This document shows positions 11,518-37,231 of a DNA stretch of 64,000 bases, one piece after another (the first letter of the stretch is position 1; each line of letters opens with the position of its first letter). The notes under the pieces were generated by a model that was not told the DNA's origin, did no database searches, and saw only the letters and a list, made by a program, of their open reading frames with translations. The translations under genes and the position numbers were made by a program. The stretch is from a virus. The stretch spans positions 100,846 through 164,845 of the IMG/VR virus record IMGVR_UViG_3300025645_000038, one strand, 5' to 3'.

Positions 11518-12219
11518 ATGAAAAGTAAAGTTTTAGACAAAGGCTTTATTGAGGTTATTGATTCGTTAGGAAACGATTTAACAGTCGTCAATTCAGCTAG
11601 AGTATCATTCGGTAAAAGAAAAACAAAGTTCGATAAGTCAGACGAAAGACTTGTTCGTTATCTTGCTAAACACAAACACTATTCACCATTCAGACATTTA
11701 CAAGTTCAGTTCCATTTAAAAGCACCTGAGTTCGTGATGAGACAATGGTATAAACATGTAGTTGGGATAGAGACTACATCTAATAGTTCTACTAAAGACC
11801 ATGCTTGGAATGAAATAAGTGGAAGATATGTTGAGTATGATGAGTTTTACGAACCAACCATTTACAGAAAACAATCTGATGATAACAAACAAGCATCAGA
11901 AGGTCAGTTTGAAGGTCAGTCTGAAATAGCAATAGCTGCTAATTGGAAACAAGCACATAGTATGACTTTGACTGCTTACAAAAATATGATAGATGCTGGT
12001 ATGGCTAAAGAACAAGCTCGTTGTATATTACCACTTACATTATACACAGAGGTATATTGGACAGCTTCCTTTCAGGCCGTAATGAATTTTATTGAGTTGA
12101 GAAACGAAAAGACTGCACAGATAGAGATACAAGATTATGCTAAGGTTCTATTAGATTTAATGTTAGAGGTTTATCCGATGACAACTAAACTATGGGCTGA
12201 GGCACACGATTGGTTATAG
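11518..12219 (+). CDS. thyX: FAD-dependent thymidylate synthase
   Basis: VVNSARVSF, H.SPF.H, NEISGRY, KEQAR..LP, NF..LR....AQ.EI. Confidence 0.93.
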   Translation: MKSKVLDKGFIEVIDSLGNDLTVVNSARVSFGKRKTKFDKSDERLVRYLAKHKHYSPFRHLQVQFHLKAPEFVMRQWYKHVVGIETTSNSSTKDHAWNEISGRYVEYDEFYEPTIYRKQSDDNKQASEGQFEGQSEIAIAANWKQAHSMTLTAYKNMIDAGMAKEQARCILPLTLYTEVYWTASFQAVMNFIELRNEKTAQIEIQDYAKVLLDLMLEVYPMTTKLWAEAHDWL

Positions 12220-13514
12220 TAGAAACAAAGAAAGAGTATAGAAAGTTTGCTAGGATATTCAGTAAAGAGGATTCCATAGTTATACCAATCGAATGTGATT
12301 TTAATAAACATCCAAGAAGTACTAGATTGTGTATACTCTATGTAAAAACTATAGATAAAGATTCCAAAGAATATATCCTACCATTTAGACATTCAGATAC
12401 TCTTAACTTAGAAGAGCATATCATTGATAGTCTTTGGACTCCCAAAAATGTTTACACTCACGATAAGAAGAAGCTACTACATTTCTTTGATTGGAAGAAC
12501 ACACACGATGTACAGATGAATCATTACTTAGAAAAGAACGAACCATTGTCTATAGATGATATATTGACAAATGCACATGAATACTTTTATAGAAAGTATT
12601 ATGGTAAGTCTAACATAAATTGTGTGATACCTATCATGAAGCATTTAGAATGGTGTAGGAAAGTGGTAGAGGTTCTAAAGGTAGCTGGTATCATTGGACT
12701 GAAAGAAACTCAATCGGTGTATAACATTTATAATGAGGATGTATTGGAGAACCTACAAAAGATAGAATCAAATGGATTACAGACTGTAGATGGTATGGTA
12801 TATTCAGAATACAATCCTTACACCGCTACAGGCCGCCCATCAAATAGATTCGGTGGTTTAAACTTTGCTGCTCTTAATAAGAAGGATGGTAGTAGAAAGA
12901 AGTTTGTAAGTAGATATGGTAAAGAGGGTATGTTGGTAGAGATGGATTATGATGCTTATCATCTAAGATTGATCGGTGAGGTAGTAGACTATCAGTTTCC
13001 AAAGGGTTCGGTACATAATCATATGGCTAAATTATATGATACCGATTATGACGAAGCAAAGTCTTTATCATTTCAGTTTTTGTATGGTCATATACCTGAT
13101 GAGGTGATAAAAACCAATCCGTTTTTCGCTAAAGTTCAAGTATATATAGATGAGGTTTGGAGTCAATATAAATCAATGAATTTCATAGAATCTTATATTT
13201 ATAATAAGAGAATATATAAGAAAAATCTGTCTGATATGAACAAAAATAAGGTATTTAACTATCTTATACAGTTAATGGAAACAGAGAATAATATGAAGAT
13301 ACTAACAGAGCTTCTACCTAAAATAGATGGTTACAAAAGTAAATTAGTTCTGTATAGTTACGATTCATTTTTATTTGACTTTTACCTGCCAGATGGATTA
13401 GATTTTCTACAGAAGGTAAAAGGTATTATTGAACAAAAGGGTAAGTTTCCAGTCAAAGTTGGCAAAGGTTGGAACTATCATGAAATGGAAGATATAACGA
13501 GGAAGTTTAAATGA
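12210..13514 (+). CDS. Truncated, atypical family A DNA polymerase-like protein
   Basis: TATGRPS, motif A DYDAYHLR, motif B AKSLSFQFLYG, motif C YSYDSF; degenerate exonuclease-like N-terminus. Confidence 0.8.
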   Translation: MVIVETKKEYRKFARIFSKEDSIVIPIECDFNKHPRSTRLCILYVKTIDKDSKEYILPFRHSDTLNLEEHIIDSLWTPKNVYTHDKKKLLHFFDWKNTHDVQMNHYLEKNEPLSIDDILTNAHEYFYRKYYGKSNINCVIPIMKHLEWCRKVVEVLKVAGIIGLKETQSVYNIYNEDVLENLQKIESNGLQTVDGMVYSEYNPYTATGRPSNRFGGLNFAALNKKDGSRKKFVSRYGKEGMLVEMDYDAYHLRLIGEVVDYQFPKGSVHNHMAKLYDTDYDEAKSLSFQFLYGHIPDEVIKTNPFFAKVQVYIDEVWSQYKSMNFIESYIYNKRIYKKNLSDMNKNKVFNYLIQLMETENNMKILTELLPKIDGYKSKLVLYSYDSFLFDFYLPDGLDFLQKVKGIIEQKGKFPVKVGKGWNYHEMEDITRKFK

Positions 13515-15598
13515 TTACAGATTTAAATGAAATATTAGTAGAATGGTCTTATCGTACAAGCGATGGTAAGCCAGATGTAAAGAATAATGCTAAGTTGATA
13601 ATACTAGAGTCAGTACTGAATGACTTTGGTTGGAGTAGAGAAGCGAGAGCTGAGTTGTTAAATACGTTGATGGAAGTGGACATAGTTAGAAAAAAACAAC
13701 CAGATGGAAGTATGGGCTCTTCATACACAGTACAAAAACACAATCCTGAAAAAGGACAGGTTTTAGTAACAAAGAATGCTTCCGATGATGCTGTTGCTAA
13801 AGTGACAAAGGGTAAAGTAGATAAAGAAAAAGACAAAGGTGAAGAAAAACCAAAGGATAATGAAGAAGGGCCAAAAGTCTCTATGTCTAACACAATAGAT
13901 AGAGGTGGAGATAGTAAGGTTAAAAATTTAGCATTTAAATATGGTTTTAAAGAGGTAAAAGATAAAGATGGAAATACTATATTTAAACCTGCGCCAGGTA
14001 ATGCAGGTTCATTGTTAAATGAGGTTGTTTCAGGTGAAGTCGCACAGATGCTTGAAGAGAATCCAAATTTATCAGATGAAGAGCTTATTGATATATTGGA
14101 AGATAGATTTGGTGAAACTGAATTATTTAAAAGTAAAGGCAAAAATGGAAATTCAGGTAGTAAACTTGCAGGAGGACTAACAAAAAAAGATATTGATGTT
14201 CCTGAAGGAAAAAATGTTGGTTTGTATAGTAAATTATTCTTAGCTGTAAAGAGTGGAAGAAGAAAACATAACAAAGCTGTAGATAAAGCTGAGAAAAGAG
14301 GTTTTAAAAATCCAAAGATGGAAAACTACTACGGTCACTCATCATCATTTGACGCGATGGTGGATGCTATTAAGGACAAACAAGTGATTGGTCCCGAAGG
14401 TGAAAAAATATCACAAGAAGAGGCAGAAGAATTAATTAGGTCAGGTGGTGGTGGAGATAACCCATCGGATACTGGAACATTGGTATTTGATGAAGCTTCT
14501 AATAAAGTTATAATGCTATTTCACTCCGATAAAGATAGTTTAGATGCGATTGTCGCACAATCAAGCGCAAACGCAGAAGCTGTAGCAAATGAAAAAAATG
14601 TTGATAGGCTGGTTAAAGATGGTAAAATTACAGAAGAACAAGCTGAAGCAGTTAAGGGTAAAAATAGAGAGTTGGTAGATACTTTAGATGATACAGAAAA
14701 AGAATTGAAACAAGTGGTTACAGGTCCAGGTAAGTGGTTTCAGAAAAATGTAGAACCAAAAGATGCAATTAATAGTATAAAGAATGATGAGAATCTTGAT
14801 GGTAGTAAAGATAAAAATGCAACATCTACAAAGTGGAAATCTGTTGTTAACCAAAGAGGTGAACTAAATTCAAAATTGAGAAAATATTTACCGGATGGAG
14901 TAAACCATAGAACTGTAACTGATGAACAAGCCTTAGATGCATTCTTAAAATTTATGGCTGATGAAGATAAGGGAGTAGATGTAAAAGGTAATCCTATAGA
15001 ACCAACTGATGACCAAGTAACATTGATGGAAAGATTAAATTCAAGGTTTGTCGAAAAAGGTGCACCTGATATATTTACTCAATTAGAAGATATAAGAAAT
15101 AGAACATTACAAGCCCAAAGAGATTTCACAAAAGATAATGATGAAATAAAAATAGATGTAGATGGTAAAGAAGTAGGATTAGGAACATTTTTAGAGGGTG
15201 GAACTGTGTGGAAACAATTTCATTTGGAAGCATCCAATTCTGATTCAAAGACAGGTGTTCATAAGTATCCTGGTATGTTTGAAACTAATCACGCTGGACT
15301 TGCAGTTGATGGCGAGACGTTGGTTGGTTGTATGGGTGGTGATGTTAAAAACAAAAATGATTTCGTAACTCGTTTAGAAGTTGGTGATATTGAAGCACAA
15401 AAAGGTGTTAGTGGAACACAAAAAGGATTAACTACAGGTGGAAAAAGATTAGTGTATGCTATAACTGCTGGTGGTGAAAAAATTGAAATAGGTCAGAAAA
15501 CAATGAGAACAAAACGAGGTAAAACAGGTAAATTAGCAACCGATTACAAGTGGTCTAAAGATATGAAAGATTGTTTTTCTAAAAAGGGAAAGAAGTAA
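13511..15598 (+). CDS. Large hypothetical protein (possible internal virion protein)
   Basis: 695 aa, charged; N-terminal IL.EWSYR..DGKP domain followed by a Lys/Glu-rich linker. Confidence 0.6.
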   Translation: MITDLNEILVEWSYRTSDGKPDVKNNAKLIILESVLNDFGWSREARAELLNTLMEVDIVRKKQPDGSMGSSYTVQKHNPEKGQVLVTKNASDDAVAKVTKGKVDKEKDKGEEKPKDNEEGPKVSMSNTIDRGGDSKVKNLAFKYGFKEVKDKDGNTIFKPAPGNAGSLLNEVVSGEVAQMLEENPNLSDEELIDILEDRFGETELFKSKGKNGNSGSKLAGGLTKKDIDVPEGKNVGLYSKLFLAVKSGRRKHNKAVDKAEKRGFKNPKMENYYGHSSSFDAMVDAIKDKQVIGPEGEKISQEEAEELIRSGGGGDNPSDTGTLVFDEASNKVIMLFHSDKDSLDAIVAQSSANAEAVANEKNVDRLVKDGKITEEQAEAVKGKNRELVDTLDDTEKELKQVVTGPGKWFQKNVEPKDAINSIKNDENLDGSKDKNATSTKWKSVVNQRGELNSKLRKYLPDGVNHRTVTDEQALDAFLKFMADEDKGVDVKGNPIEPTDDQVTLMERLNSRFVEKGAPDIFTQLEDIRNRTLQAQRDFTKDNDEIKIDVDGKEVGLGTFLEGGTVWKQFHLEASNSDSKTGVHKYPGMFETNHAGLAVDGETLVGCMGGDVKNKNDFVTRLEVGDIEAQKGVSGTQKGLTTGGKRLVYAITAGGEKIEIGQKTMRTKRGKTGKLATDYKWSKDMKDCFSKKGKK

Positions 15599-16011
15599 TG
15601 AAAACACAACTACTCTGCACATTCACCCAAAAAGAAAATCTAAATGATATTCTTGACCTAATCATTTTATGTAATGATATACTCTACGATAAGATATATG
15701 TATTTCAGAATGGTAAAGACCACAACCAGCTTATCTGTACATACAATGTTGAGTACGATGGTGATAATCATCCTGAAGATATTCCAAATACGATATCACT
15801 ACATAGAAAGAAACAAAGTAATACACTATACACAATCAACGCACTCAACGAAGTTATCAGAGAACTAAATGGTGGTGTGCTTGATAAGAGATTTCCCATA
15901 CCTTGGGATGATTACTATAATAGTTTATTACTAACTAATGAGAACGGACTAAATAAAATACCGACAAAAATACACAGCATCGTTGATACAAAAAATCATA
16001 AAGAAAATTAA
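15598..16011 (+). CDS. Hypothetical phage protein upstream of SSB
   Basis: 137 aa, TAATG coupling; KTQLLCTF and HRKKQSNTLYTINALN motifs. Confidence 0.7.
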   Translation: MKTQLLCTFTQKENLNDILDLIILCNDILYDKIYVFQNGKDHNQLICTYNVEYDGDNHPEDIPNTISLHRKKQSNTLYTINALNEVIRELNGGVLDKRFPIPWDDYYNSLLLTNENGLNKIPTKIHSIVDTKNHKEN

Positions 16012-16113: not shown

Positions 16114-16869
16114 ATGGATATTAATTCTATTCGTAAGCGTCTTAATCAATTACAAACCACAAACAATAGGACTTCAAACCTATGGAAACCTCAACCAGGA
16201 AAACAAGTCATTAGGGTATTACCTTACAAACATAATAAGGATAATCCTTTCATTGAGTTGTTCTTTCATTTTGGTTTGAATAACAAAACCTATTTATCAC
16301 CAATCTCTTTTGGTCGTCCAGACCCAATTGAAGAGTTTGCTCAGAAACTAAAAACAAGTGGAAACAGAGAAGAGTATCAGATGGCTCGTAAGTTAGAAGC
16401 CAAGATGAGAACTTTTGCTCCTGTTATTGTTAGAGGTGAAGAGACTCAAGGTGTTCGTTTTTGGGGATTTGGTAAGACGGTCTATCAAGAATTACTTTCT
16501 GTAATAGCAGATCCAGACTATGGTGATATCACAGACGCTGTTAGTGGTCGTGATGTATCAGTAGAGTTTATTACTGCTGAAGAAAGTGGTGCTTCTTTTC
16601 CTAAGACTACCATTCGTGTTAAACCTAATCAGAATCCTATCGTAGAGGATAAAGCACAATTGGAAAATCTCTTAGAAAACCAAAAAGACATTACTGAATT
16701 ATATCAGGAATTATCTTATGAGGAGCTAACAGATGTTCTTAACACTTGGTTGAATCCAGATGATACATCAACCGAGAGTGGAACTCAGACTGAAGCTTCG
16801 TCAGTAGTAGCTGAAACAGCAAAAGTTGAAGATGCTAGTGCTGCATTTGATGAGTTATTCAATAAGTAA
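16114..16869 (+). CDS. Single-stranded DNA-binding protein (T4 gp32-like)
   Basis: LWKP..GK..IR.LP, DPI.E, WGFGK.VY, DITD...GRD; acidic tail AFDELF. Confidence 0.88.
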   Translation: MDINSIRKRLNQLQTTNNRTSNLWKPQPGKQVIRVLPYKHNKDNPFIELFFHFGLNNKTYLSPISFGRPDPIEEFAQKLKTSGNREEYQMARKLEAKMRTFAPVIVRGEETQGVRFWGFGKTVYQELLSVIADPDYGDITDAVSGRDVSVEFITAEESGASFPKTTIRVKPNQNPIVEDKAQLENLLENQKDITELYQELSYEELTDVLNTWLNPDDTSTESGTQTEASSVVAETAKVEDASAAFDELFNK

Positions 16870-16876
16870 ATAAAGT

Positions 16877-16954
16877 GTAGTGGGTGTTGAAGCCAACACT
16901 AATAAAACCGAGTGTGTGCGAAGGATTCTTTACAAAGCCGGACACACCCACTAT
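16877..16954 (+). ncRNA. Candidate structured cis-regulatory RNA in the recA leader
   Basis: Perfect 10-bp stem TAGTGGGTGT/ACACCCACTA enclosing inner hairpins; GC-rich for this genome; ends 6 nt before the SD. Confidence 0.5.
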
Positions 16955-16970
16955 CTAATAGGAGAAATAT

Positions 16971-18068
16971 ATGTCAGTTAAAGACGATTTAGCTGGGGTT
17001 CTTGCCGACTCTCTAAATAAGAAGTTCAAAGATTATAAGGTTGCTTACTTCTTGGATGGAGTTCAAGAAACACCAACAGATATCAAAGAGTTCATTTCAA
17101 CAGGTTCAACAATGTTAGACTTAGCAATTTCAAATCGCCCTAATGGTGGTATTGCAGTTGGTAGGATTACAGAACTGAATGGATTGGAAAGTAGTGGTAA
17201 ATCATTAGTAGGTGCTCACCTACTTTCAGAGACTCAAAAGAAAGGTGGTGTCGCTGTTTATATAGATACAGAGACTGCCGTAAGTGAAGAATTTTTAGGT
17301 GTTATAGGTGTTGATATAAATAATATGTTGTATCTACATTTAGAAACAGTAGAAGATATCTTTGAAGCTATTGAAGAAATCGTAACCAAAGTTCGTGAGT
17401 CTGATAAGGATAGGTTAGTAACCATCTTAGTAGATTCATTAGCTGCTGCTACAACTAAGGTTGAGTTAAATGCAGACTTTGATAAGGATGGTTGGGCTAC
17501 TTCAAAAGCTATCGTAATATCTAAAGCTATGAGAAAGATTACTCAGATGATTGGAAGACAAAGAGTAGCTTTGGTATTCACAAATCAGTTAAGGGTAAAG
17601 TTAGGTGCTATGTTTGGAGATCCTTATACCACATCAGGTGGTAAGGCTCTTCCTTTTCATGCATCAACTCGTATTCGTTTAAAGAATAAAGGTCAAATAA
17701 AGGATACTAAAAAGAATGTAATCGGTATGACTATTCTGGCACAAGTGATTAAGAATCGTTTGGGTCCTCCACTTAGAAAAGCAGAGTTTCCTCTGTACTT
17801 TGAAAGTGGTGTAGATGATGAGGGTAGTTGGTTACAAGTTCTTAAAGACCACAACTTAGTCAAAGTTGGTGGTGCTTGGTATACTATGAAAGACCACAAT
17901 GATGAAGAGATTAAGTTTCAATCTAAGGATTGGGCTGAAAAGTTAGAAGATGAAGATTTCAAAGACTATTGTTACAAGTTGATTTGTGATAAAGTCATAC
18001 TGAAATACACTAAAGCTGATTTAGGTATCGATGATGTAGAGATTACAGAAGAGGTGTTGGGTGACTAA
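16971..18068 (+). CDS. recA: RecA/UvsX recombinase
   Basis: STGS..LD, GRITE..GLESSGKS Walker A, YIDTE, VDSLAA, FTNQLR, GGKALPFHAS.R. Confidence 0.95.
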   Translation: MSVKDDLAGVLADSLNKKFKDYKVAYFLDGVQETPTDIKEFISTGSTMLDLAISNRPNGGIAVGRITELNGLESSGKSLVGAHLLSETQKKGGVAVYIDTETAVSEEFLGVIGVDINNMLYLHLETVEDIFEAIEEIVTKVRESDKDRLVTILVDSLAAATTKVELNADFDKDGWATSKAIVISKAMRKITQMIGRQRVALVFTNQLRVKLGAMFGDPYTTSGGKALPFHASTRIRLKNKGQIKDTKKNVIGMTILAQVIKNRLGPPLRKAEFPLYFESGVDDEGSWLQVLKDHNLVKVGGAWYTMKDHNDEEIKFQSKDWAEKLEDEDFKDYCYKLICDKVILKYTKADLGIDDVEITEEVLGD

Positions 18069-28161: not shown

Positions 28162-28878
28162 ATGAATAAACATTCGTTAAACCGATTCATTGATAAATAT
28201 TATCTTGGTGGGAACTGCTCATCAGTTGTGATTAATAGTAAGGGAGATTCTCTTTCTACTAGATTCATTACGGGTGATAAGAATCTACTTGGTGAACTAA
28301 CCATGAGTGGTTGGAGTTTTGATGAAGCTGACTTAGGTGTGTATAACACAGAGCAGCTCGTTAAACTTCTATCTGTTCTATCAGAGAATATTTCAATGAA
28401 CCTAACCAAAGCTGGTGACAAAGCTGTTTCATTAAAAATATCAGATACAAAGTCTGATGTAAATTATATGCTATCAGATTTGTCTGTTATCAGTTCACCA
28501 CCTAACCTAAAGTCTATACCTGATTTCGAGGTAAAGATTAAAGTTGACAAATCTTTTATGTCAAAGTTTGTTGCAGGTAAGGGTGCTCTAACTGATACGG
28601 ATAACTTTACAGTCATCACAGATGATGAGGGTGTAAAGGTTGTTATTGGTTATGCTGAGATTAACACTAATCGTGTTACTCTTCCTGTAGAAACAGAATC
28701 TTATGATAAGATTGAGAATGTTTCTTTCAATGCTAATCTGTTCAGAGATGTATTAGTGGCTAACAAAGAATGTGAAAGTGCTACATTAGAAGTAAGTTCA
28801 CAAGGTTTGGCTCGTATCAATTTTAAGATTGATGAGTATGATGCTACTTATTACTTGGTTGCTGATACAGATGTATAA
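28162..28878 (+). CDS. Sliding clamp (gp45-like)
   Basis: 238 aa between PolB and clamp loader; clamp-like size; C-terminal S..GLARINF...ATYYLV. Confidence 0.8.
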   Translation: MNKHSLNRFIDKYYLGGNCSSVVINSKGDSLSTRFITGDKNLLGELTMSGWSFDEADLGVYNTEQLVKLLSVLSENISMNLTKAGDKAVSLKISDTKSDVNYMLSDLSVISSPPNLKSIPDFEVKIKVDKSFMSKFVAGKGALTDTDNFTVITDDEGVKVVIGYAEINTNRVTLPVETESYDKIENVSFNANLFRDVLVANKECESATLEVSSQGLARINFKIDEYDATYYLVADTDV

Positions 28879-29639
28879 TGGAATCTTATGTAGATAAATC
28901 TAAAGTATCTTTACGGCCAGTCAATAAAAAACTGGCCAAAGATATGATAGAAAAATACCATTATAGTGGTGTAATGTCGGCTTGTAGATATACTCTTGGT
29001 GTATTTTACAAGTCAGACAACCACAAGTTTTTCGATGGAGATGTCGATGACTTTATTGGTGTAGCTTGTTATGGTTTTCCAGTTGGCAGAAGCGTAGTAT
29101 CTTCTATGTTTACAGAAGATGTATTAGAAAATAAGAATGTTTTGGAATTAAAAAGACTATTTATACATGATGGTTATGGAAAGAACATAGAATCCTATGT
29201 TATATCGCAGAGTTTCAAATGGTTAAAAGAATATTCGCCTGATATTAAAGTATTAATATCTTACGCTGATCCTGAACAAGCTCATGATGGTTGTATCTAC
29301 CAAGCTACTAATTGGATTTATCAAGGTTGTGGTAGTTTTCAGTTGATGCCGACATACTCATTAAGATTAAACGAAGAAGATGATTGGATGCATAGTAGAA
29401 ATGTTTACTCTATGTATGGTTCTAATAATCTTGATAAGATGAAGAAGGCTATAGGACATGACTTCTGGTTAAAAAGAGAAACCACGAAACATAGATATAT
29501 TTACTTTCTCGGTAATAAAAAAGAGAATAGAAATTTTAATAAGATATTGAAACACCCATCGATGGACTATCCAAAAGATACAGAGTTCATTGATGAAGTA
29601 ATTAAAGTAGAAGTAAAGGATAACAAATGGAAAAATTAG
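28878..29639 (+). CDS. Mom-like DNA adenine-modification enzyme (GNAT fold), paralog 1
   Basis: HYS, LEL.RL, N.ESY.I, ISYADP...H.G.IYQATNW.Y.G, K.RY. Confidence 0.8.
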   Translation: MESYVDKSKVSLRPVNKKLAKDMIEKYHYSGVMSACRYTLGVFYKSDNHKFFDGDVDDFIGVACYGFPVGRSVVSSMFTEDVLENKNVLELKRLFIHDGYGKNIESYVISQSFKWLKEYSPDIKVLISYADPEQAHDGCIYQATNWIYQGCGSFQLMPTYSLRLNEEDDWMHSRNVYSMYGSNNLDKMKKAIGHDFWLKRETTKHRYIYFLGNKKENRNFNKILKHPSMDYPKDTEFIDEVIKVEVKDNKWKN

Positions 29640-30550
29640 AACATAGTTTATGGGTTGAGAAATACCGGCCGACATCACTAGATACTTACATTGGGAATGA
29701 ACATCTCAAAAGTAAAGTATCTGTATATCTTGAGAGTGGGGACTTACCACACCTTTTACTGTATGGGAAAGCCGGTACAGGTAAAACCACTCTCGCTAAA
29801 ATATTAGTCAACAACATAGAATGTGACTATATGTATATTAACGCCTCCGATGAGAATAGTGTGGATACGGTTCGTACTAAAGTTCGTGGGTTCGCTTCTA
29901 CGATGGGGTTCAAAGATTATAAGATTATAATCTTAGATGAGTGTGATTACATCACACCTAACGCTCAAGCCGCTTTGCGTAACCTTATGGAGACTTTTTC
30001 TAAACACTGTAGGTTCATTCTAACTTGTAACTTTGTAGAAAGAATAATTGACCCGATACAATCTCGTTGTCAATCATTTCAGGTGATACCACCATCAAAG
30101 AAAGAAGTTGCTATTCATATGACTAATATCCTAAAAGAAGAGGGTGTTGCTTCTAAGATGGATGATATAGCTGGTTTGGTTAACGCTGGTTATCCTGATA
30201 TTCGTAGGGTGATAAACTCTTGTCAAAGGCAAGTCGTAGATGGTATGTTGGTTGTAGACAAACAATCTTTAGTTGAGAGTGACTATAAGATGAAGTTGAT
30301 GGAAATAATTAAGAAAGAAAGTAAGAAAGATGCATTTAAAAGTGCAAGAAAGTTATTGGCTGATAGTCAAGTAACAGACTTCGCTGAACTATATAAGTTG
30401 ATGTATGATGAGGTAGATTCATATGGTACAGGACATATAGCGGAATGTATTTTGATTATAGCTAAGTATCAGTTATCGGATAGTCAGGTAGTTGATAAGG
30501 AAATAAATGCTATGGCTATGATAATAGAATTATTAGGAGTAATAAAATGA
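29627..30550 (+). CDS. Clamp loader large subunit (gp44/RFC AAA+)
   Basis: LWVEKYRP, GKAGTGKT, NASDE, LDECD, SRC. Confidence 0.95.
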   Translation: MEKLEHSLWVEKYRPTSLDTYIGNEHLKSKVSVYLESGDLPHLLLYGKAGTGKTTLAKILVNNIECDYMYINASDENSVDTVRTKVRGFASTMGFKDYKIIILDECDYITPNAQAALRNLMETFSKHCRFILTCNFVERIIDPIQSRCQSFQVIPPSKKEVAIHMTNILKEEGVASKMDDIAGLVNAGYPDIRRVINSCQRQVVDGMLVVDKQSLVESDYKMKLMEIIKKESKKDAFKSARKLLADSQVTDFAELYKLMYDEVDSYGTGHIAECILIIAKYQLSDSQVVDKEINAMAMIIELLGVIK

Positions 30551-30795
30551 GTACGAAACCAATGAAACCATTACCAGGTGGACAACCACCACAACAAGAA
30601 ATAAGTATAGAAGATACAGAATCAATCAAGTGTGATGATTGCGGTAACTATTCTTTTATTAAATCTTACTTTATAAGAAGAATATCACCAATCGTATCAC
30701 CGACAGGTCAAGAAGCATTAGTACCAATCGAAGTATTCAGTTGTGGTAATTGTGGTAAAGTGCCAGACTCAATGATGCCAAAAGGTAATGAGTAA
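30547..30795 (+). CDS. Small zinc-ribbon protein
   Basis: CDDC...CGNC. Confidence 0.75.
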   Translation: MSTKPMKPLPGGQPPQQEISIEDTESIKCDDCGNYSFIKSYFIRRISPIVSPTGQEALVPIEVFSCGNCGKVPDSMMPKGNE

Positions 30796-30937
30796 AGATA
30801 CTGGCGCTGGTAAAGGTGACAAACTAAGAAGAGGAATAACTCAAGATGAGTGGGAAAAGAAATGGGAAAAAATCTTTGGTAAAAAAGAAAAGTCTGTTCG
30901 ACCACATAAATCAAATAACAGCAGTTCAAAATCCTAA
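30788..30937 (+). CDS. Unannotated 49-aa ORF overlapping the clamp-loader small subunit gene
   Basis: MSKDTGAGKGDKLRRGITQDEWEKKWEKIFGKK...; GKG.K.R...W..IF pattern seen in small phage proteins; ATG overlaps the end of the upstream gene. Confidence 0.55.
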   Translation: MSKDTGAGKGDKLRRGITQDEWEKKWEKIFGKKEKSVRPHKSNNSSSKS

Positions 30938-31322
30938 CTATTGGGATGATATATCAGACGAAGATAAGAAGTCTTGGTCTAATTATATGGTAAATAGATT
31001 TCTATCTATGAACTCTGATTGGACAGATTTGGTTAATGAGATTCAGAAGTATCCTATTGAACCTAAAGATTTATATAAAGTTTATACAAGCATCTTACCA
31101 AAGAAAAAACAATGGTTAAGATATATCAAAGGAGATAAAAAAATGAAGTATCCTATATGGGTTTACGAAATAGTCGGTAAACATTTACAATGTAGTATTA
31201 AAGAAGCTAACGAAGCAGTAGAGATGTATCGTATATCAGCTGGTGGACAATCAGAGTTAGCAGACATCATGTTTAAGTATGGTGTAGAAGATAAAGAAGT
31301 AAGGAAGCTTGGACTTATATAG
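30846..31322 (+). CDS. Clamp loader small subunit (gp62-like)
   Basis: YMVNRFLSM, LPKKKQW..YIK; near the gp44-like gene; SD GAGGA. Confidence 0.75.
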   Translation: MSGKRNGKKSLVKKKSLFDHINQITAVQNPNYWDDISDEDKKSWSNYMVNRFLSMNSDWTDLVNEIQKYPIEPKDLYKVYTSILPKKKQWLRYIKGDKKMKYPIWVYEIVGKHLQCSIKEANEAVEMYRISAGGQSELADIMFKYGVEDKEVRKLGLI

Positions 31323-31963
31323 TGTCTGTTACCAACTTCACAGTCGAATCAATACCAAGAAAATCATTAGTACCTTTCGTAGAAAAACATCACTACTCTC
31401 ATAATACAAATGGTGTACAATCGATATACCATTTTGGGTTATATGGTGAAGGTAACTTTGGTTTACCTAAGATGATTGGAGCAGCTATGTACGCTTATCC
31501 ATCTATGCCCGATACCGCTAAGAAGTACAATCCAATCAATCCAACCAAATGTTTAGAACTTAGAAGGTTGGTTTGTATCGATGATACACCTAAGAATACA
31601 GAGAGTTACTTTATAGGTCAGACTTTCAAGTGGTTGAAACAGAATACGGATATGGAAGTTATAGTATCATTTGCTGATGAACATCATGGACATACAGGTG
31701 TGATATACAAAGCTACTAACTTTGAGTATTGGGGTGAAACTGCTGGTGGTAGGATACTGATGGTTGATGGAAAAGAAACACATAGTCGGTCACTTAATCA
31801 AATAAAGAGACCATATGGTAGAGAACTTAATCGTAGATATAAAGCTGGTGATGAAAATATATTTTGGAAGAAGACAAAACCAAAGCATATTTATGTATAC
31901 TATCTCAATAAAATAATTAAAAGAAAAATAAAAAAGCTTGACTTTATCAAGAAAAAGTCGTAG
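31322..31963 (+). CDS. Mom-like DNA adenine-modification enzyme, paralog 2
   Basis: HHYS, LELRRL, NTESYFI, VSFADE..GH.G.IYKATNF.Y.G, KH.Y. Confidence 0.8.
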   Translation: MSVTNFTVESIPRKSLVPFVEKHHYSHNTNGVQSIYHFGLYGEGNFGLPKMIGAAMYAYPSMPDTAKKYNPINPTKCLELRRLVCIDDTPKNTESYFIGQTFKWLKQNTDMEVIVSFADEHHGHTGVIYKATNFEYWGETAGGRILMVDGKETHSRSLNQIKRPYGRELNRRYKAGDENIFWKKTKPKHIYVYYLNKIIKRKIKKLDFIKKKS

Positions 31964-34271: not shown

Positions 34272-34501
34272 GAACTGATTTAATTAAAGCTAGTGAACTA
34301 CACTTTAAAGCACATATTGAAAAACATAGAATAAATGTAGAAAATTTATTAGAAAATGGTGTGGGTGTTGCTGAACATGCAGATATTATGGATACGATAG
34401 AAAAAGAGTTAGAGATTATGGCTGAATATGATGATAAGCTATCTATCTTAAATAAATACTTCACAATCAATGGTGGTTCTAAAGAGGTTATAAATGGTTA
34501 A
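34268..34501 (+). CDS. Hypothetical phage protein
   Basis: 77 aa, GVAEH.DI..TIE.EL motif. Confidence 0.7.
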   Translation: MRTDLIKASELHFKAHIEKHRINVENLLENGVGVAEHADIMDTIEKELEIMAEYDDKLSILNKYFTINGGSKEVING

Positions 34502-35888
34502 GAAAAAGATTTTACTATTATCGGATGATTTAAGAATGTCTTCTGGCGTAGGTACGATGTCAAGAGAGTTTGTTTTAGGAACTCTCAAACATTACGATTG
34601 GGTACAAGTTGGTGGTGCTATTAAACATCCTGATGAAGGTAAGATTATAGACATGAATGAATCTGTGAGAAAAGATACAGGTATAGAAGACGCTTATCTT
34701 AAAATATATCCTGTGAGTGGTTATGGTAGTCCAGATGTAATCAGGCAAGTTACCCAAATGGAAAATGGTATTGACGCTATTTTACATTATACAGACCCAA
34801 GATTTTGGGGATGGTTGTATCAGATGGAACATGAGTTAAGAAGAACCACTCCGATATTTTACTATAATATATGGGATGATTTACCTTATCCAATGTGGAA
34901 TGAACCATTCTATGAGTCTTGTGATTTGATTATGAATATATCTAAACAAACAGTCAATATTGTAGACAATGTATGTCAGATTAAACCAAGAACAGAGTGG
35001 GATAATACTTACATTCCACATGGCATAAATGAAAATAACTTTTATCCTATCGACTCTTCTCATACAGAATGGAATGATTTACTAAAATTCAAAAGAAATG
35101 TGACTAATGGTAAAGACTACAAATACATAGTATTTTGGAACAATAGAAACATCAGAAGAAAGTTACCTGGTGATGTTATAATGGCTTACAAACAATTCTG
35201 TGACCAATTACCAAAAGAAGAAGCTGAAAAATGTGCTCTCATAATGCACACCCAACCAAGAGATGAAAATGGTACAGATTTACCAGAGGTTGTAAAACAA
35301 TGTTGTCCAGATTATGATGTAATATTTTCACATCAAAAGTTAAGTGATAAAGAACTTTGTTTCTTATATAACATAGCAGATGTTGGAATGAACATGGCTT
35401 CTAATGAAGGATTTGGTTTAGGAACTTGTGAGGCTCTAATGTGTGGTACACCGATATCGGTAAATGTCACAGGTGGATTACAAGACCAATGTGGTTTTAA
35501 ATACAAAGGTGAGTTTATAACTTACAAAGACTATAGTTGGATTCATTCATTACATGATGATAAGAAGTGGAAAGATAATGAAGATTTGGCTCATGGTGAG
35601 TGGGTAAAGCCGGTATGGCCGTCTAACAGGAGTCTACAAGGTTCAATACCAACACCATATATCTATGATGACAGACCTCGTTCAGAAGACTTTGGTGATG
35701 CCCTAAAAGAGTGGTATGATATGGGGGATGAAGAAAGAAAAAGATGTGGTAAGTTAGGTCATGAGTTTGTTATGAGTGATGATGCTAGTATGTCAGCCAC
35801 CGCTATGTCCAACTTATTCATAGAACATATGGATACAGCATTTGAGAAGTGGACACCTCGTAAACGATTTACAATGTTTAAAGCATAG
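34494..35888 (+). CDS. Glycosyltransferase, GT-B fold (GT4-like)
   Basis: DD....SGVG, IPHGI, RNIRRK, EGFGL...EA..CGTP. Confidence 0.88.
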   Translation: MVKKKILLLSDDLRMSSGVGTMSREFVLGTLKHYDWVQVGGAIKHPDEGKIIDMNESVRKDTGIEDAYLKIYPVSGYGSPDVIRQVTQMENGIDAILHYTDPRFWGWLYQMEHELRRTTPIFYYNIWDDLPYPMWNEPFYESCDLIMNISKQTVNIVDNVCQIKPRTEWDNTYIPHGINENNFYPIDSSHTEWNDLLKFKRNVTNGKDYKYIVFWNNRNIRRKLPGDVIMAYKQFCDQLPKEEAEKCALIMHTQPRDENGTDLPEVVKQCCPDYDVIFSHQKLSDKELCFLYNIADVGMNMASNEGFGLGTCEALMCGTPISVNVTGGLQDQCGFKYKGEFITYKDYSWIHSLHDDKKWKDNEDLAHGEWVKPVWPSNRSLQGSIPTPYIYDDRPRSEDFGDALKEWYDMGDEERKRCGKLGHEFVMSDDASMSATAMSNLFIEHMDTAFEKWTPRKRFTMFKA

Positions 35889-35896
35889 GAGTTATA

Positions 35897-37231
35897 ATGA
35901 AACCATTAATGTTAATCACAGGACCAGTTGCTACAAGAAGTGGGTATGGTTCACATAGTAGAGATTTATGTAGAAGTCTAATAGCTATGGATAAGTTTGA
36001 TATAAAGATTAATTCACTTCGTTGGGGTAATTGTCCAATGAATGCTTTAGATGAAAGTAAACCAGAGGATGTAGAAATACTTAGTAGAATATTATCTAAC
36101 AATGAGTTACCGAGACAACCCGAAGTTCACATACAGATAAGTGTACCTAATGAATTTACTCCTATAGCTAAGTATAATATAGGTGTAACTGCTGGTATAG
36201 AAAATACAGCACCTAAAGCTGAGTGGATTCAAGGTATGAATCGTATGAATATGAATATAGTTCCATCTAAGTTTGTGAAAGGTATATTTGAGTCAGTTTC
36301 ATACGAAGAGATAAATGAACAAACAAAACAGAAGACGGGTGAGCTGAAATGTACATCACCGATAGAGGTTCTTTTTGAAGGAGCCGATACTAAAATCTAT
36401 GGTAAGACAAAAGATATATCAGATGACTTAAAAGCTGAAATGGACAACATAGAGGAAAGATTTGTATTCTTATACACAGGACATTGGTTGCAAGGTGATA
36501 TAGGACAAGACAGAAAAGATACAGGAATGTTACTACAGACTTTCTTAGAGACATTTAAAAACAAACCTAATCCACCAGCTTTGGTTATGAAAACAAGTGG
36601 TGCTACTTTTTCTGTTATAGATAGAAATGAAATTAAAGGTAAGATAGAAGATATTAAGAACACTGTCAAGGGACAACTTCCTCCTGTTTATTTCTTACAC
36701 GGTGATTTAACTGATGAGGAAATGAATCAGTTATACAACCATCCTAAAGTTAAAGCTCATATTACATTTACTCATGGTGAAGGTTTTGGTCGTCCTCTAT
36801 TAGAAGCTAGTTTATCAGAAAAGATAGTTATAGCTCCTAATTGGAGTGGTCATATAGATTTTCTTAATAAAAATAACTCAGTTCTTTTGCCTGGTGTGAT
36901 GACAGATGTTCACAAATCAGCTCTACCTAAAGAGATGTTAGTCGAAGGAGCTAAATGGTTTACTGTAAACTATCAATACGCTTCTCAGGTTATGAAAGAT
37001 GTGCTTAAAGATAATAGAAAGTATACTATGATGGCTAAAAAACAATCTATGTATAATAGGGTAAACTTTTCTATGGATAAGATGACTAAAGACTTTGGTA
37101 AAATATTGGATAGATATCTACCTAAGTTTGAAGAACAACCACAACAGGTTGATTTAAAGTTGCCAAAGCTAAAAAAAGTTGGCGATAGTAAACCAAAACA
37201 AATAAAACTACCAAAGTTAAAGAAGGTGTAA
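35897..37231 (+). CDS. Glycosyltransferase, GT-B fold (GT4-like)
   Basis: SGYG, RKD, GEGFGRPLLEA, WSGH.DF. Confidence 0.88.
   Translation: MKPLMLITGPVATRSGYGSHSRDLCRSLIAMDKFDIKINSLRWGNCPMNALDESKPEDVEILSRILSNNELPRQPEVHIQISVPNEFTPIAKYNIGVTAGIENTAPKAEWIQGMNRMNMNIVPSKFVKGIFESVSYEEINEQTKQKTGELKCTSPIEVLFEGADTKIYGKTKDISDDLKAEMDNIEERFVFLYTGHWLQGDIGQDRKDTGMLLQTFLETFKNKPNPPALVMKTSGATFSVIDRNEIKGKIEDIKNTVKGQLPPVYFLHGDLTDEEMNQLYNHPKVKAHITFTHGEGFGRPLLEASLSEKIVIAPNWSGHIDFLNKNNSVLLPGVMTDVHKSALPKEMLVEGAKWFTVNYQYASQVMKDVLKDNRKYTMMAKKQSMYNRVNFSMDKMTKDFGKILDRYLPKFEEQPQQVDLKLPKLKKVGDSKPKQIKLPKLKKV

What the first reader, a model, noticed from the sequence alone, without database searches (positions are those of the whole stretch)
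12210..13514. Thumb-less family A polymerase with a rewired active site, next to a complete PolB replisome
Seen: only a few residues separate IESNGLQT from VYSEYNPYTATGRPS, where Pol I has a thumb subdomain of about 100 aa. Both catalytic Asp remain, but the steric-gate Glu (DYSQIELR) is His (DYDAYHLR), the motif B Arg is Tyr (YDEAK), motif C reads YDSF (T7 RNA polymerase has HDSF; DNA Pol A has HDE), and the exonuclease-like domain lacks a clear ExoI DxE. The phage already has PolB, clamp and loader, and no primase lies in this window. Inference: not a replicase. It may be a distributive nucleotidyltransferase that makes primers, adds ribo- or modified nucleotides, or fills gaps, or its thumb may be supplied by a partner protein. 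This is a candidate uncharacterised PolA subfamily.
Basis: partly seen in the sequence, partly recalled or inferred. Interest (0 to 1): 0.75.

Follow-up and report, generated by a model that had tools for sequence, protein, structure and literature searches.

The report
Thumbless second phage polymerase (divPolA1)
This marine phage gene encodes a shrunken relative of DNA polymerase I with no thumb and no proofreading site; it belongs to the untested "divPolA1" family described by computer analysis in 2024, and it always travels with a small unknown protein that may be its partner.

Summary
ORF 12210-13514 (434 aa) folds confidently (pLDDT 95.6) as a Klenow-type exo-like domain plus palm and fingers. 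Eleven residues stand where Klenow has 114, so about 100 aa of thumb are gone.

In 215 family members both catalytic Asp, the K758, Y766, R668 and Q849 equivalents and a Tyr at H881 are invariant or nearly so. His replaces the steric-gate Glu in 214 of 215. dN/dS is 0.05-0.24.

It is not a new subfamily. It belongs to divPolA1 (Yutin et al. 2024, PMC11348598), which is described only in silico. This scan has flagged the same family before on other DNA.

A PolB, clamp and clamp loader lie in the window, and a DnaG-type primase lies elsewhere in the genome. A related phage, immuto, has a full PolA instead of PolB but keeps divPolA1. The fold is much closer to DNA polymerases (Z 24-25) than to T7-type RNA polymerases (Z 9-13).

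New here:
- The family is very abundant in marine metagenomes.
- A 137-aa protein of unknown fold class (15598-16011) accompanies divPolA1 wherever the contig reaches far enough (75/75 and 39/39 loci).

Most likely function: an active, non-proofreading, low-processivity auxiliary DNA polymerase of the replication-recombination module. No experiment has tested this.

The parts
12210..13514 (+). divPolA1-type thumb-less family-A polymerase, 434 aa, TTG start, overlaps the thyX stop by 10 nt
   Evidence: ORF. No Pfam, PHROG or NCBIfam hit. AF2 pLDDT 95.6. Pol I large fragments Z 28, Klenow Z 24.3 with 414 residues aligned. Homolog of immuto gene 1.
12210..12695 (+). N-terminal 3'-5' exonuclease-like (DEDD-fold) domain, residues ~1-162, without the DEDD residues. 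Carries family-specific conserved H34, H61, D100 and P141.
   Evidence: Matches RNase D, ExnV1, Rrp6 and WRN exonuclease domains at Z 8-11 over residues 1-~189. Position 28 is F/L/Y and K87 is conserved near the expected ExoII site. H34 is kept in 209/215, H61 in 208/215 and D100 in 206/215.
12777..12809 (+). Stump that replaces the thumb: 11 residues (190-200) between IESNG and YSEY
   Evidence: Klenow has 114 residues between the equivalent Gly and Tyr. The family has 7-30. DSSP shows two short strands at 190-192 and 195-197.
12828..12842 (+). Motif 2, TGRPS. R209 corresponds to Klenow R668, the contact to the primer-terminus minor groove.
   Evidence: R209 is kept in 215/215. Aligned to TGRLS.
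12933..12971 (+). Motif A, LVEMDYDAYHLRL. D246 is the catalytic Asp (D705). H251 sits at the steric-gate Glu position (E710).
   Evidence: D246 is kept in 215/215 and H251 in 214/215. Alignments.
13047..13088 (+). Motif B (O-helix), YDEAKSLSFQFLYG. Y280 is at R754; K284 = K758; F288 = F762; Y292 = Y766.
   Evidence: K284 is kept in 215/215, Y292 in 214/215 and F288 in 209/215. Position 280 is Y in 175, I in 14 and R in 12.
13257..13286 (+). Motif 6, NYLIQLMETE. N350 = N845 and Q354 = Q849, followed by family-specific invariant E357 and conserved E359.
   Evidence: Q354 and E357 are kept in 215/215, N350 in 210/215. Alignment.
13350..13379 (+). Motif C, LYSYDSFLFD. Y384 is at H881; D385 is the catalytic Asp (D882); S386 is at E883.
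   Evidence: Y384 and D385 are kept in 215/215. Position 386 is S in 180 and A in 31.
13511..15598 (+). Variable 695-aa ORF wedged between divPolA1 and the small protein. It evolves fast and is largely disordered. Its function is unknown.
   Evidence: No family hit. The Atlas model has pLDDT 0.51. Most loci carry a 340-825-aa ORF at this position, falling into two loose homology groups; 7 loci have none.
15598..16011 (+). Strictly co-occurring 137-aa protein of unknown function, a candidate partner of divPolA1 or a mediator of the gp32/UvsX module
   Evidence: Present in 75/83 divPolA1 loci; the other 8 are cut short downstream. In the reverse search, 39/39 loci with enough upstream DNA carry divPolA1. 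It hits the same six phage records that hold near-full-length divPolA1. dN/dS is 0.03-0.15. AF2 pLDDT 92.5. The only fold match is a generic ferredoxin/ACT/RRM-like half at Z 6.7.
16114..20606 (+). Conserved downstream module: gp32-like SSB (16114-16869), UvsX/RecA (16971-18068), 5'-3' exonuclease/FEN (18061-19095), DnaB-like helicase (19248-20606)
   Evidence: Pfam and PHROG hits. The same order occurs in immuto and Mel-JY01 and across IMG/VR loci.
25604..31322 (+). The regular replisome: PolB (25604-28099), sliding clamp (28162-28878), clamp-loader large subunit (29627-30550) and small subunit (30846-31322), with Mom-like genes interleaved
   Evidence: Pfam PF00136 and PF03104; PHROGs 262, 223, 168 and 225.
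11518..12219 (+). ThyX thymidylate synthase immediately upstream. It is not a conserved neighbour.
   Evidence: PF02511, E 7.5e-41. Present in only 14 of the 84 sources compared, the window included.

Best explanation
The gene encodes a member of the divPolA1 family. It is a catalytically active, template- and primer-dependent family-A DNA polymerase that has lost its thumb and its proofreading site.

Shown:
- A Klenow-type fold.
- The two metal-binding Asp, the O-helix Lys and Tyr, and the two minor-groove readers of the primer-template (the R668 and Q849 equivalents) are invariant across 215 diverse members.
- Purifying selection is strong.
- The gene holds a fixed place at the head of the SSB-UvsX-FEN-helicase module.
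- It coexists with a regular replicase, which is PolB here and a full PolA in immuto.

Inferred:
- Without a thumb it should grip duplex DNA weakly and add only short stretches.
- It would therefore act as an auxiliary short-patch polymerase of the replication-recombination module. Candidate jobs are filling gaps after primer removal by the neighbouring FEN, or extending invading 3' ends made by UvsX and gp32. The PolB-clamp replisome would do the bulk synthesis.
- The strictly co-occurring 137-aa protein may be a second subunit that supplies DNA binding.
For: - Fold: pLDDT 95.6. Z 28 to Pol I large fragments. Klenow Z 24.3 with 414 residues aligned, against T7 RNAP Z 10.9.
- Motif mapping to Klenow.
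- Invariance of R209, D246, K284, Q354 and D385 in 215/215, and of H251 and Y292 in 214/215.
- dN/dS 0.05-0.24.
- Thumb absent in all members.
- Synteny with SSB-RecA-FEN-DnaB in immuto, Mel-JY01 and 83 loci.
- A regular DNAP is present in all nine genomes or large contigs checked: PolB in eight and a 778-aa PolA in immuto.
- PolB, clamp and clamp loader lie in this window.
- A DnaG-type primase is present, so a primase role is not required.
- Yutin et al. 2024 reached the same structural reading and proposed retained DNAP activity and a role in replication.
[quoted passage not shown] 1996, as cited in PMC10061031).
Against: - No member has been assayed.
- Three nucleotide-pocket residues that are nearly universal in PolA are changed: E710 to His, R754 to Tyr or Ile, and H881 to Tyr. 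The substrate or the chemistry may therefore differ.
- The specific job (gap filling or D-loop extension) rests only on gene neighbourhood within one phage lineage.
- T4-type replisomes manage without a second polymerase.
- The regular DNAP is the gene that gets swapped in this clade while divPolA1 stays fixed. This could equally mean that divPolA1 is the core enzyme.
Confidence: 0.55

Rival explanations
1. divPolA1 and the 137-aa protein form a two-subunit enzyme that starts DNA or RNA chains de novo. This would be a PolA-derived primase or initiator, analogous to CcPol-MP of SCCmec elements. Loss of the thumb, including its last helix, would open room for the triphosphate of an initiating nucleotide.
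For: - The small protein co-occurs strictly with divPolA1.
- CcPol-MP is a proven PolA-based primase that needs a small partner, and S. aureus CcPols have a shortened thumb.
- Rice 2023 argues that the last thumb helix of Pol I blocks an initiating triphosphate.
- The module contains a helicase.
- Two singleton database proteins fuse the divPolA1 C-terminal half to the small protein.
Against: - A DnaG-type primase candidate is found in this genome, and a Toprim ORF in all four complete relatives and in one 73%-complete contig.
- The partner is not recognisably an OB-fold SSB.
- The invariant R668 and Q849 equivalents point to work on an existing primer-template duplex.
- The fused proteins are singletons and could be assembly or frameshift artefacts. 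One fuses the small protein to gp32, and others are plain chimeras.
Confidence: 0.12
2. divPolA1 is the conserved core replicative polymerase of this phage lineage. The helicase, the small protein or another factor would make it processive. The swappable regular PolA, PolB or PolC would serve another purpose.
For: - divPolA1 is fixed at the head of the conserved replication module, while the regular DNAP differs in family between relatives.
- Yutin et al. note that the regular DNAPs sit in a less clearly replicative context.
Against: - Here PolB lies with a sliding clamp and both clamp-loader subunits, the standard T4-type replicase set.
- divPolA1 has neither a thumb nor proofreading, which suits a genome of about 160 kb or more poorly.
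- No fused or longer forms that would add a processivity domain were found.
Confidence: 0.1
3. It is a specialised polymerase whose rewired pocket (His at the steric gate, Tyr at R754 and at H881) lets it insert ribonucleotides or modified nucleotides, or copy modified template DNA, that the main replicase handles poorly.
For: - The three substitutions are almost invariant in the family and lie at positions that contact the incoming nucleotide in Pol I (established knowledge of Klenow E710, R754 and H881).
- The phage carries two Mom-like modification genes, thyX and glycosyltransferases.
Against: - His is as bulky as Glu, so the gate may still exclude a 2'-OH.
- F762 and Y766 are DNAP-like.
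- ThyX is next to divPolA1 in only 14 of the 84 sources compared.
- The fold is far closer to DNAPs than to RNAPs.
- No modification pathway is shown to co-vary with divPolA1.
Confidence: 0.13
4. It is a catalytically dead polymerase fossil kept as a structural or loading factor of the replisome.
For: The thumb and the exonuclease site are lost, and several canonical pocket residues are replaced.
Against: Every residue needed for two-metal catalysis and nucleotide binding is invariant in 215 members that are as little as 30% identical. A scaffold would not require this.
Confidence: 0.05

Closest known systems
divPolA1 (Yutin et al. 2024, Virol J 21:200, PMC11348598; exemplar Flavobacterium phage vB_FspM_immuto gene 1)
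   Same: - Homologous: 31.7% identity over 90% of the protein, E 1e-54.
- About 430-470 aa, with a truncated thumb and the exonuclease catalytic acids replaced.
- Palm catalytic residues are kept.
- It lies upstream of SSB-RecA-FEN-DnaB.
- It coexists with a regular DNAP.
   Different: - This copy is a divergent marine member beside a PolB replisome, and it has the shortest thumb stump in the family (11 residues).
- The paper listed 14 phages. Here the family is seen in thousands of metagenomic clusters.
- I found no mention in the paper of the co-occurring small protein, the His at the steric gate or the Tyr in motif C (term searches of the text only).
E. coli DNA polymerase I Klenow fragment and Bacillus/Taq large fragments
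   Same: - Same two-domain fold: Z 24-28, with 393-414 of 434 residues aligned.
- Motifs 2, A, B, C and 6 are in order, with D705, D882, K758, F762, Y766, R668, N845 and Q849 equivalents.
   Different: - About 100 aa of thumb are absent.
- E710 is His, R754 is Tyr, H881 is Tyr and E883 is Ser.
- There is no DEDD exonuclease site and no 5'-3' exonuclease domain. A separate FEN gene lies 4.5 kb downstream.
CcPol-MP / PolA-SSB primases of Bacillota mobile elements (Bebel et al. 2020, PMC7581432; Rice 2023, PMC10061031)
   Same: - A trimmed family-A polymerase encoded with a small obligatory partner gene and a helicase.
- Shortened thumb in the S. aureus CcPols.
- Precedent that such a pair can gain a new activity.
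   Different: - CcPol trims the exonuclease domain and only shortens the thumb.
- Its partner is an OB-fold SSB. The partner candidate here is an alpha/beta protein with no OB match.
- The context is a large lytic-type phage that already has a DnaG-type primase, not an integrative element.
divPolA2 (same paper; barbaviruses)
   Same: A second divergent PolA that lacks a canonical thumb and is encoded beside a regular PolB.
   Different: divPolA2 has an unrelated N-terminal globular domain, a variable gene context and RNAP-like structural hits. The protein here keeps the exo-like domain, a fixed replication context and DNAP-like hits.
T7-type single-subunit RNA polymerases (T7 RNAP, N4 mini-vRNAP, mitochondrial RNAP)
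   Same: Same palm and fingers core. Ser follows the motif C Asp.
   Different: - Much weaker structural match: Z 8.6-13 with about 245 residues aligned, against Z 21-25 for DNAPs.
- There is no promoter-binding N-terminal domain.
- A bulky His sits at the steric-gate position. From memory, not tested here, T7 RNAP has a small residue there.
- The R668 and Q849 equivalents are kept.

Membership tests
divPolA1 (Yutin et al. 2024) | Sequence homology to the exemplar proteins (immuto gene 1 and relatives) | tested here: met
   tblastn gives 31.7% identity, 90% coverage and E 1e-54 to immuto 'DNA polymerase family A' gene 1. It also hits Mel-JY01 and LR756508. All lie within one HMMER family.
divPolA1 (Yutin et al. 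2024) | Truncated thumb with palm catalytic residues conserved | tested here: met
   11 residues against 114 in Klenow. D246 and D385 are invariant.
divPolA1 (Yutin et al. 2024) | 3'-5' exonuclease domain present but with its catalytic acids replaced | tested here: met
   The DEDD-fold domain matches RNase D and ExnV1 at Z ~11. There is no DxE: position 28 is F/L/Y, and the expected ExoII site carries conserved Lys. The mapping of ExoII and ExoIII is by secondary-structure register, not by superposed coordinates.
divPolA1 (Yutin et al. 2024) | Conserved position upstream of replication genes, and coexistence with a regular DNAP | tested here: met
   SSB-UvsX-FEN-DnaB lie downstream. PolB is in the window. 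Relatives carry PolB or PolA.
Canonical family-A DNA polymerase (Pol I type, Pfam PF00476) | Motifs A, B and C with the two catalytic Asp, the O-helix Lys and Tyr, and a Klenow fold | tested here: met
Canonical family-A DNA polymerase (Pol I type, Pfam PF00476) | Complete right hand including the thumb subdomain, and a score above the Pfam threshold | tested here: not met
   The thumb is absent. There is no PF00476 hit even at E 10.
PolA-SSB primase (CcPol-MP type) | Small partner protein with an OB fold that confers ssDNA binding | tested here: inconclusive
   The co-occurring 137-aa protein is modelled as beta-alpha-beta sheets. Its best matches are generic ACT/RRM-like domains at Z 6.7. No OB-fold entry was among the rows listed by those searches, which does not exclude one.
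PolA-SSB primase (CcPol-MP type) | Primer-independent synthesis by the complex | not testable with these tools
   This needs biochemistry.
PolA-SSB primase (CcPol-MP type) | Stands in place of a conventional primase in its element | tested here: not met
   A candidate primase ORF is present in this genome: its Pfam matches to the DnaG zinc ribbon, the DnaG core and Toprim are each below the curated cut-off but collinear. Relatives each have a Toprim-matching ORF of similar size.
T7-type single-subunit RNA polymerase | Fold closer to single-subunit RNAPs than to DNAPs | tested here: not met
   Family-A DNAPs score Z 21-25. Mitochondrial RNAP scores 13.1, T7 RNAP 10.9 and N4 mini-vRNAP 8.6.

The most novel reading that the evidence does not exclude
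divPolA1 and the strictly co-inherited 137-aa protein form an obligate two-subunit family-A polymerase. The small subunit would take over the DNA-holding role of the lost thumb and give the enzyme a new activity, for example starting chains de novo or restarting replication at recombination intermediates. This would be a new polymerase architecture carried by a very abundant group of marine phages.
Probability: 0.18. Interest if true: 0.75.

Novelty: new member of a known kind. Interest (0 to 1): 0.42.

Why it matters
Family-A polymerases are among the best understood enzymes, and the thumb is considered part of their basic working hand. Here a naturally thumb-less version has been kept under strong selection in thousands of ocean phage variants, always beside a regular replicase. 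This raises the question of what a second, probably distributive polymerase does in a T4-like replisome.

The family has never been assayed. The nearly invariant His at the steric gate, the Tyr in motif C and the constant small companion protein give concrete handles for experiments. A compact polymerase with an altered nucleotide pocket could also interest enzyme engineers.

The gene itself is not a discovery, because the family was named in 2024.

Tried and rejected
- Pfam, PHROGs and NCBIfam on the target gave no hit even at E 10 or E 1. A single-sequence search of PDB sequences gave noise only. Homology became visible only with a family profile or by fold.
- A search for fused or longer forms of the polymerase (>760 aa) found none. 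This is weak evidence.
- Longer proteins containing the small protein: 13 hits, all but one a single sequence. Two join it to the divPolA1 C-terminal half and one to gp32. One joins it to a RecA fragment and one to a FEN fragment plus a weak divPolA1 match; three carry unrelated enzyme domains and the rest have no recognised partner domain. I treat them as possible assembly or frameshift artefacts, not as Rosetta-stone proof.
- Small protein against Pfam, PHROGs and PDB sequences: nothing. Against the UvsY-like protein of phage Nachito by hhalign: probability 0.1%. Foldseek PDB found nothing below E 0.001. BFVD returned only its own uncharacterised homolog. ESM Atlas returned nothing usable for it or for the 695-aa ORF.
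- UvsY (PF11056) and gp59 (PF08993) were not found in four genomes, but neither search had a positive control.
- The idea that thyX adjacency is functional is rejected. ThyX is present in only 14 of the 84 sources compared.
- Promoter and terminator scans around the gene were no better than shuffled sequence.
- The isoelectric points of the proteins were uninformative.
Full report
**What is there**

The finding covers one ORF, 12210-13514 on the + strand (434 aa). It starts at a TTG that overlaps the stop of the upstream thyX gene by 10 nt, with GAGG 8 nt upstream. Close homologs align from residue 1, so the start is sound. The protein matches nothing in Pfam (even at E 10), PHROGs or NCBIfam, and a single-sequence search of PDB sequences gives only noise.

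**Checking the observation**

BLASTP against the replicative PolA of Bacillus phage Nachito aligns residues 192-408 with 571-820 (24% identity, E 2e-11). It places IESNG about 170 residues earlier in that enzyme.

A profile of 75 diverse homologs (A1) finds the Klenow fragment at E 2.6e-11. In that alignment IESNG pairs with IERNG, and VYSEY..TGRPS pairs with VHTSY..TGRLS. Between the Gly and the Tyr lie 11 residues here and 114 in Klenow, so about 100 aa, the thumb, are missing.

The same alignment gives these equivalences:

| This protein | Klenow |
|---|---|
| R209 | R668 |
| D246 | D705 |
| H251 | E710 |
| Y280 | R754 |
| K284 | K758 |
| F288 | F762 |
| Y292 | Y766 |
| N350 | N845 |
| Q354 | Q849 |
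| Y384 | H881 |
| D385 | D882 |
| S386 | E883 |

The AlphaFold2 model is very confident (pLDDT 95.6, pTM 0.93). Foldseek and VIA-align place it with Pol I large fragments: Z 28 with 393-397 of 434 residues aligned.

Against one representative per PDB cluster, family-A DNA polymerases score Z 21-25 (full-length Taq 18.4). Klenow scores 24.3 with 414 residues aligned. Single-subunit RNA polymerases score only 8.6-13. The N-terminal ~160-190 residues match DEDD exonuclease domains (RNase D, ExnV1, Rrp6, WRN) at Z 8-11. The ExoI DxE is absent, however: position 28 is F/L/Y in the family.

The window also holds a PolB, a sliding clamp and both clamp-loader subunits.

**Is it functional?**

The family is large. 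More than 3,000 clusters at 90% identity matched. In a library clustered at 50% identity, 568 representatives matched at E<1e-30, and all of the 150 best listed are 471 aa or shorter. At least 595 IMG/VR stretches encode a relative.

Conservation in 215 full-length members:
- R209, D246, K284, Q354, E357, Y384 and D385 are invariant.
- H251 and Y292 are kept in 214 of 215.
- Position 280 is Tyr in 175, Ile in 14 and Arg in 12.

The thumb stump is 7-30 residues in all members. Nei-Gojobori dN/dS between close pairs is 0.05-0.24. Neither is seen.

The invariant R668 and Q849 equivalents read the minor groove of the primer-template in Pol I. This argues for templated extension of an existing primer.

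**Is it new?**

An earlier follow-up note of this scan, on another genome, pointed to Yutin et al. 2024. I read the paper. It describes divPolA1 in 14 phages, namely Flavobacterium phage immuto and relatives.
- Genomes are 155-190 kb.
- Each also encodes a regular DNAP of family A, B or C.
- The thumb is truncated and the exonuclease catalytic Asp are replaced.
- The palm is intact.
- A conserved set of replication genes lies downstream.
- The authors infer retained polymerase activity and a role in replication.

My protein hits immuto gene 1 at 31.7% identity over 90% of its length (E 1e-54). It shares the same downstream order, SSB, RecA/UvsX, 5'-3' exonuclease, DnaB. It is therefore a divergent marine member of a family already named. 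No paper in the library reports an experiment on it. The scan has flagged this family several times on other DNA.

**Context tests**

- This genome, Mel-JY01 and LR756508 have PolB.
- Immuto has no PolB but has a 778-aa canonical PolA.
- LR756508 also has a DnaE-type enzyme.
- Five further large IMG/VR contigs all carry PolB beside divPolA1. One of them is a complete 159.6-kb genome with terminal repeats.

The regular replicase thus varies while divPolA1 stays. This agrees with the paper.

A 313-aa ORF with collinear DnaG zinc-ribbon, DnaG-core and Toprim matches lies at 35337-36278 of the 164,845-bp record. Each of those Pfam matches is below the curated cut-off. Toprim ORFs of similar size occur in immuto, Mel-JY01, LR756508, the complete IMG/VR genome and one 73%-complete contig. 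The absence of a primase from the window is therefore not an absence from the phage.

**A constant companion**

I called ORFs in 83 loci carrying a homolog and clustered them. The most conserved neighbour is not SSB or UvsX. It is the 137-aa ORF at 15598-16011.
- It is present in 75 loci. The other 8 are all cut less than 2.8 kb downstream.
- In the reverse direction, of 80 loci found through the small protein, all 39 with enough upstream DNA carry divPolA1 on the same strand, 1.3-3.8 kb away.
- Among cultured or deposited phages it hits the same six records that hold near-full-length divPolA1.
- It is more conserved than the polymerase. For example, it is 84% identical in a locus where the polymerase is 71% identical. 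Its dN/dS is 0.03-0.15.
- It has no sequence family.
- Its model is confident (pLDDT 92.5) and alpha/beta. Only a generic ferredoxin/ACT/RRM-like match was found, for its first half (Z 6.7).
- It is neither a helical hairpin like a thumb nor a recognisable OB fold.

Between the two genes most loci carry one fast-evolving ORF of about 340-825 aa. Here it is the disordered 695-aa protein at 13511-15598. Seven loci have the two genes directly adjacent.

The linkage fits a partner role. It fits equally a role with gp32 and UvsX, which follow it directly. These phages show no recognisable UvsY or gp59 (no positive control). All carriers appear to belong to one broad lineage, so co-occurrence alone cannot settle the matter. 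A few database proteins fuse the small protein to the polymerase's C-terminal half, to gp32 or to unrelated fragments. All but one are single sequences and may be artefacts.

**How it most likely works**

Shown:
- an intact two-metal polymerase site and nucleotide-binding O-helix in a Klenow fold;
- no thumb and no proofreading site;
- strong purifying selection;
- fixed membership of the SSB-UvsX-FEN-helicase module;
- coexistence with a full replisome and a primase.

Inferred: it extends primers with dNTPs in short patches as an auxiliary polymerase, for example filling gaps with the neighbouring FEN or extending recombination intermediates. Thumb truncation in Klenow keeps activity but lowers processivity and fidelity (Minnick 1996, as cited in PMC10061031). 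I put this at about 0.55.

Rivals:
- A CcPol-MP-like initiator formed with the small protein, 0.12. A DnaG-type primase is present, and the partner is not OB-like.
- The true core replicase, 0.10.
- A polymerase for ribonucleotides, modified nucleotides or modified templates, 0.13. This rests on His at E710, Tyr at R754 and H881, and on the Mom-like genes, thyX and glycosyltransferases in the genome.
- A dead scaffold, 0.05. The invariant catalytic residues contradict this.

**Verdict**

It is an untested member of a family already described in silico.

- the scale of the family in marine metagenomes;
- residue-level invariance, including the steric-gate His and family-specific E357, H34, H61 and D100;
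- quantitative selection estimates;
- structural distance from RNA polymerases;
- presence of a primase;
- the strictly linked small protein.

Noticed in passing
window 13511-15598: This 695-aa ORF lies between divPolA1 and the small protein. It is Lys/Glu/Asp-rich and mostly disordered. It occupies a slot that in other loci holds unrelated-looking ORFs of about 340-825 aa, in two loose homology groups. Its N-terminus reads MITDLNE, which contains an L-x-E like the T4 prohead-protease sites noted by earlier readers. It might be a packaged or injected protein.
   Followed up: partly
window 28878-29639 and 31322-31963: Two Mom-like DNA-modification paralogs (PF25680, phrog_1384) are interleaved with the clamp and clamp-loader genes. 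They suggest that this phage modifies its DNA.
   Followed up: no
window 22754-25492: A 912-aa phage protein has CarboxypepD_reg and TonB-dependent-receptor Plug domains. It sits between the class II ribonucleotide reductase and PolB. This is an odd place for an outer-membrane-receptor-like protein and hints at a Bacteroidota host.
   Followed up: no
whole record G000, plus immuto, Mel-JY01 and G003: No UvsY (PF11056) or gp59 (PF08993) match was found, although gp32, UvsX and a DnaB-like helicase are present. The conserved 137-aa protein just upstream of gp32 could be an unrecognised mediator or loader. The searches had no positive control.
   Followed up: partly
P0275, P0278, P0277 (database proteins): These singleton ORFs fuse the small protein to the C-terminal half of divPolA1 (P0275 on a 159-kb contig, and P0278) or to gp32 (P0277). 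They could be real fusions or frameshift or assembly artefacts.
   Followed up: partly
LR756508.1 259363-267278 (L015-L018): The PolB of this 484-kb phage matches in four pieces spread over two long ORFs (1022 and 625 aa), with unmatched inserts between them. This suggests inteins or a split polymerase.
   Followed up: no
G000 24474-97972 (outside the window): A run of giant ORFs (2273, 1051, 4583, 1214, 2091, 2018, 1738 and 2047 aa) takes up much of the rest of the record.
   Followed up: no
window 34494-37231: Two adjacent GT4-type glycosyltransferase-like genes, with weak Pfam matches.
   Followed up: no
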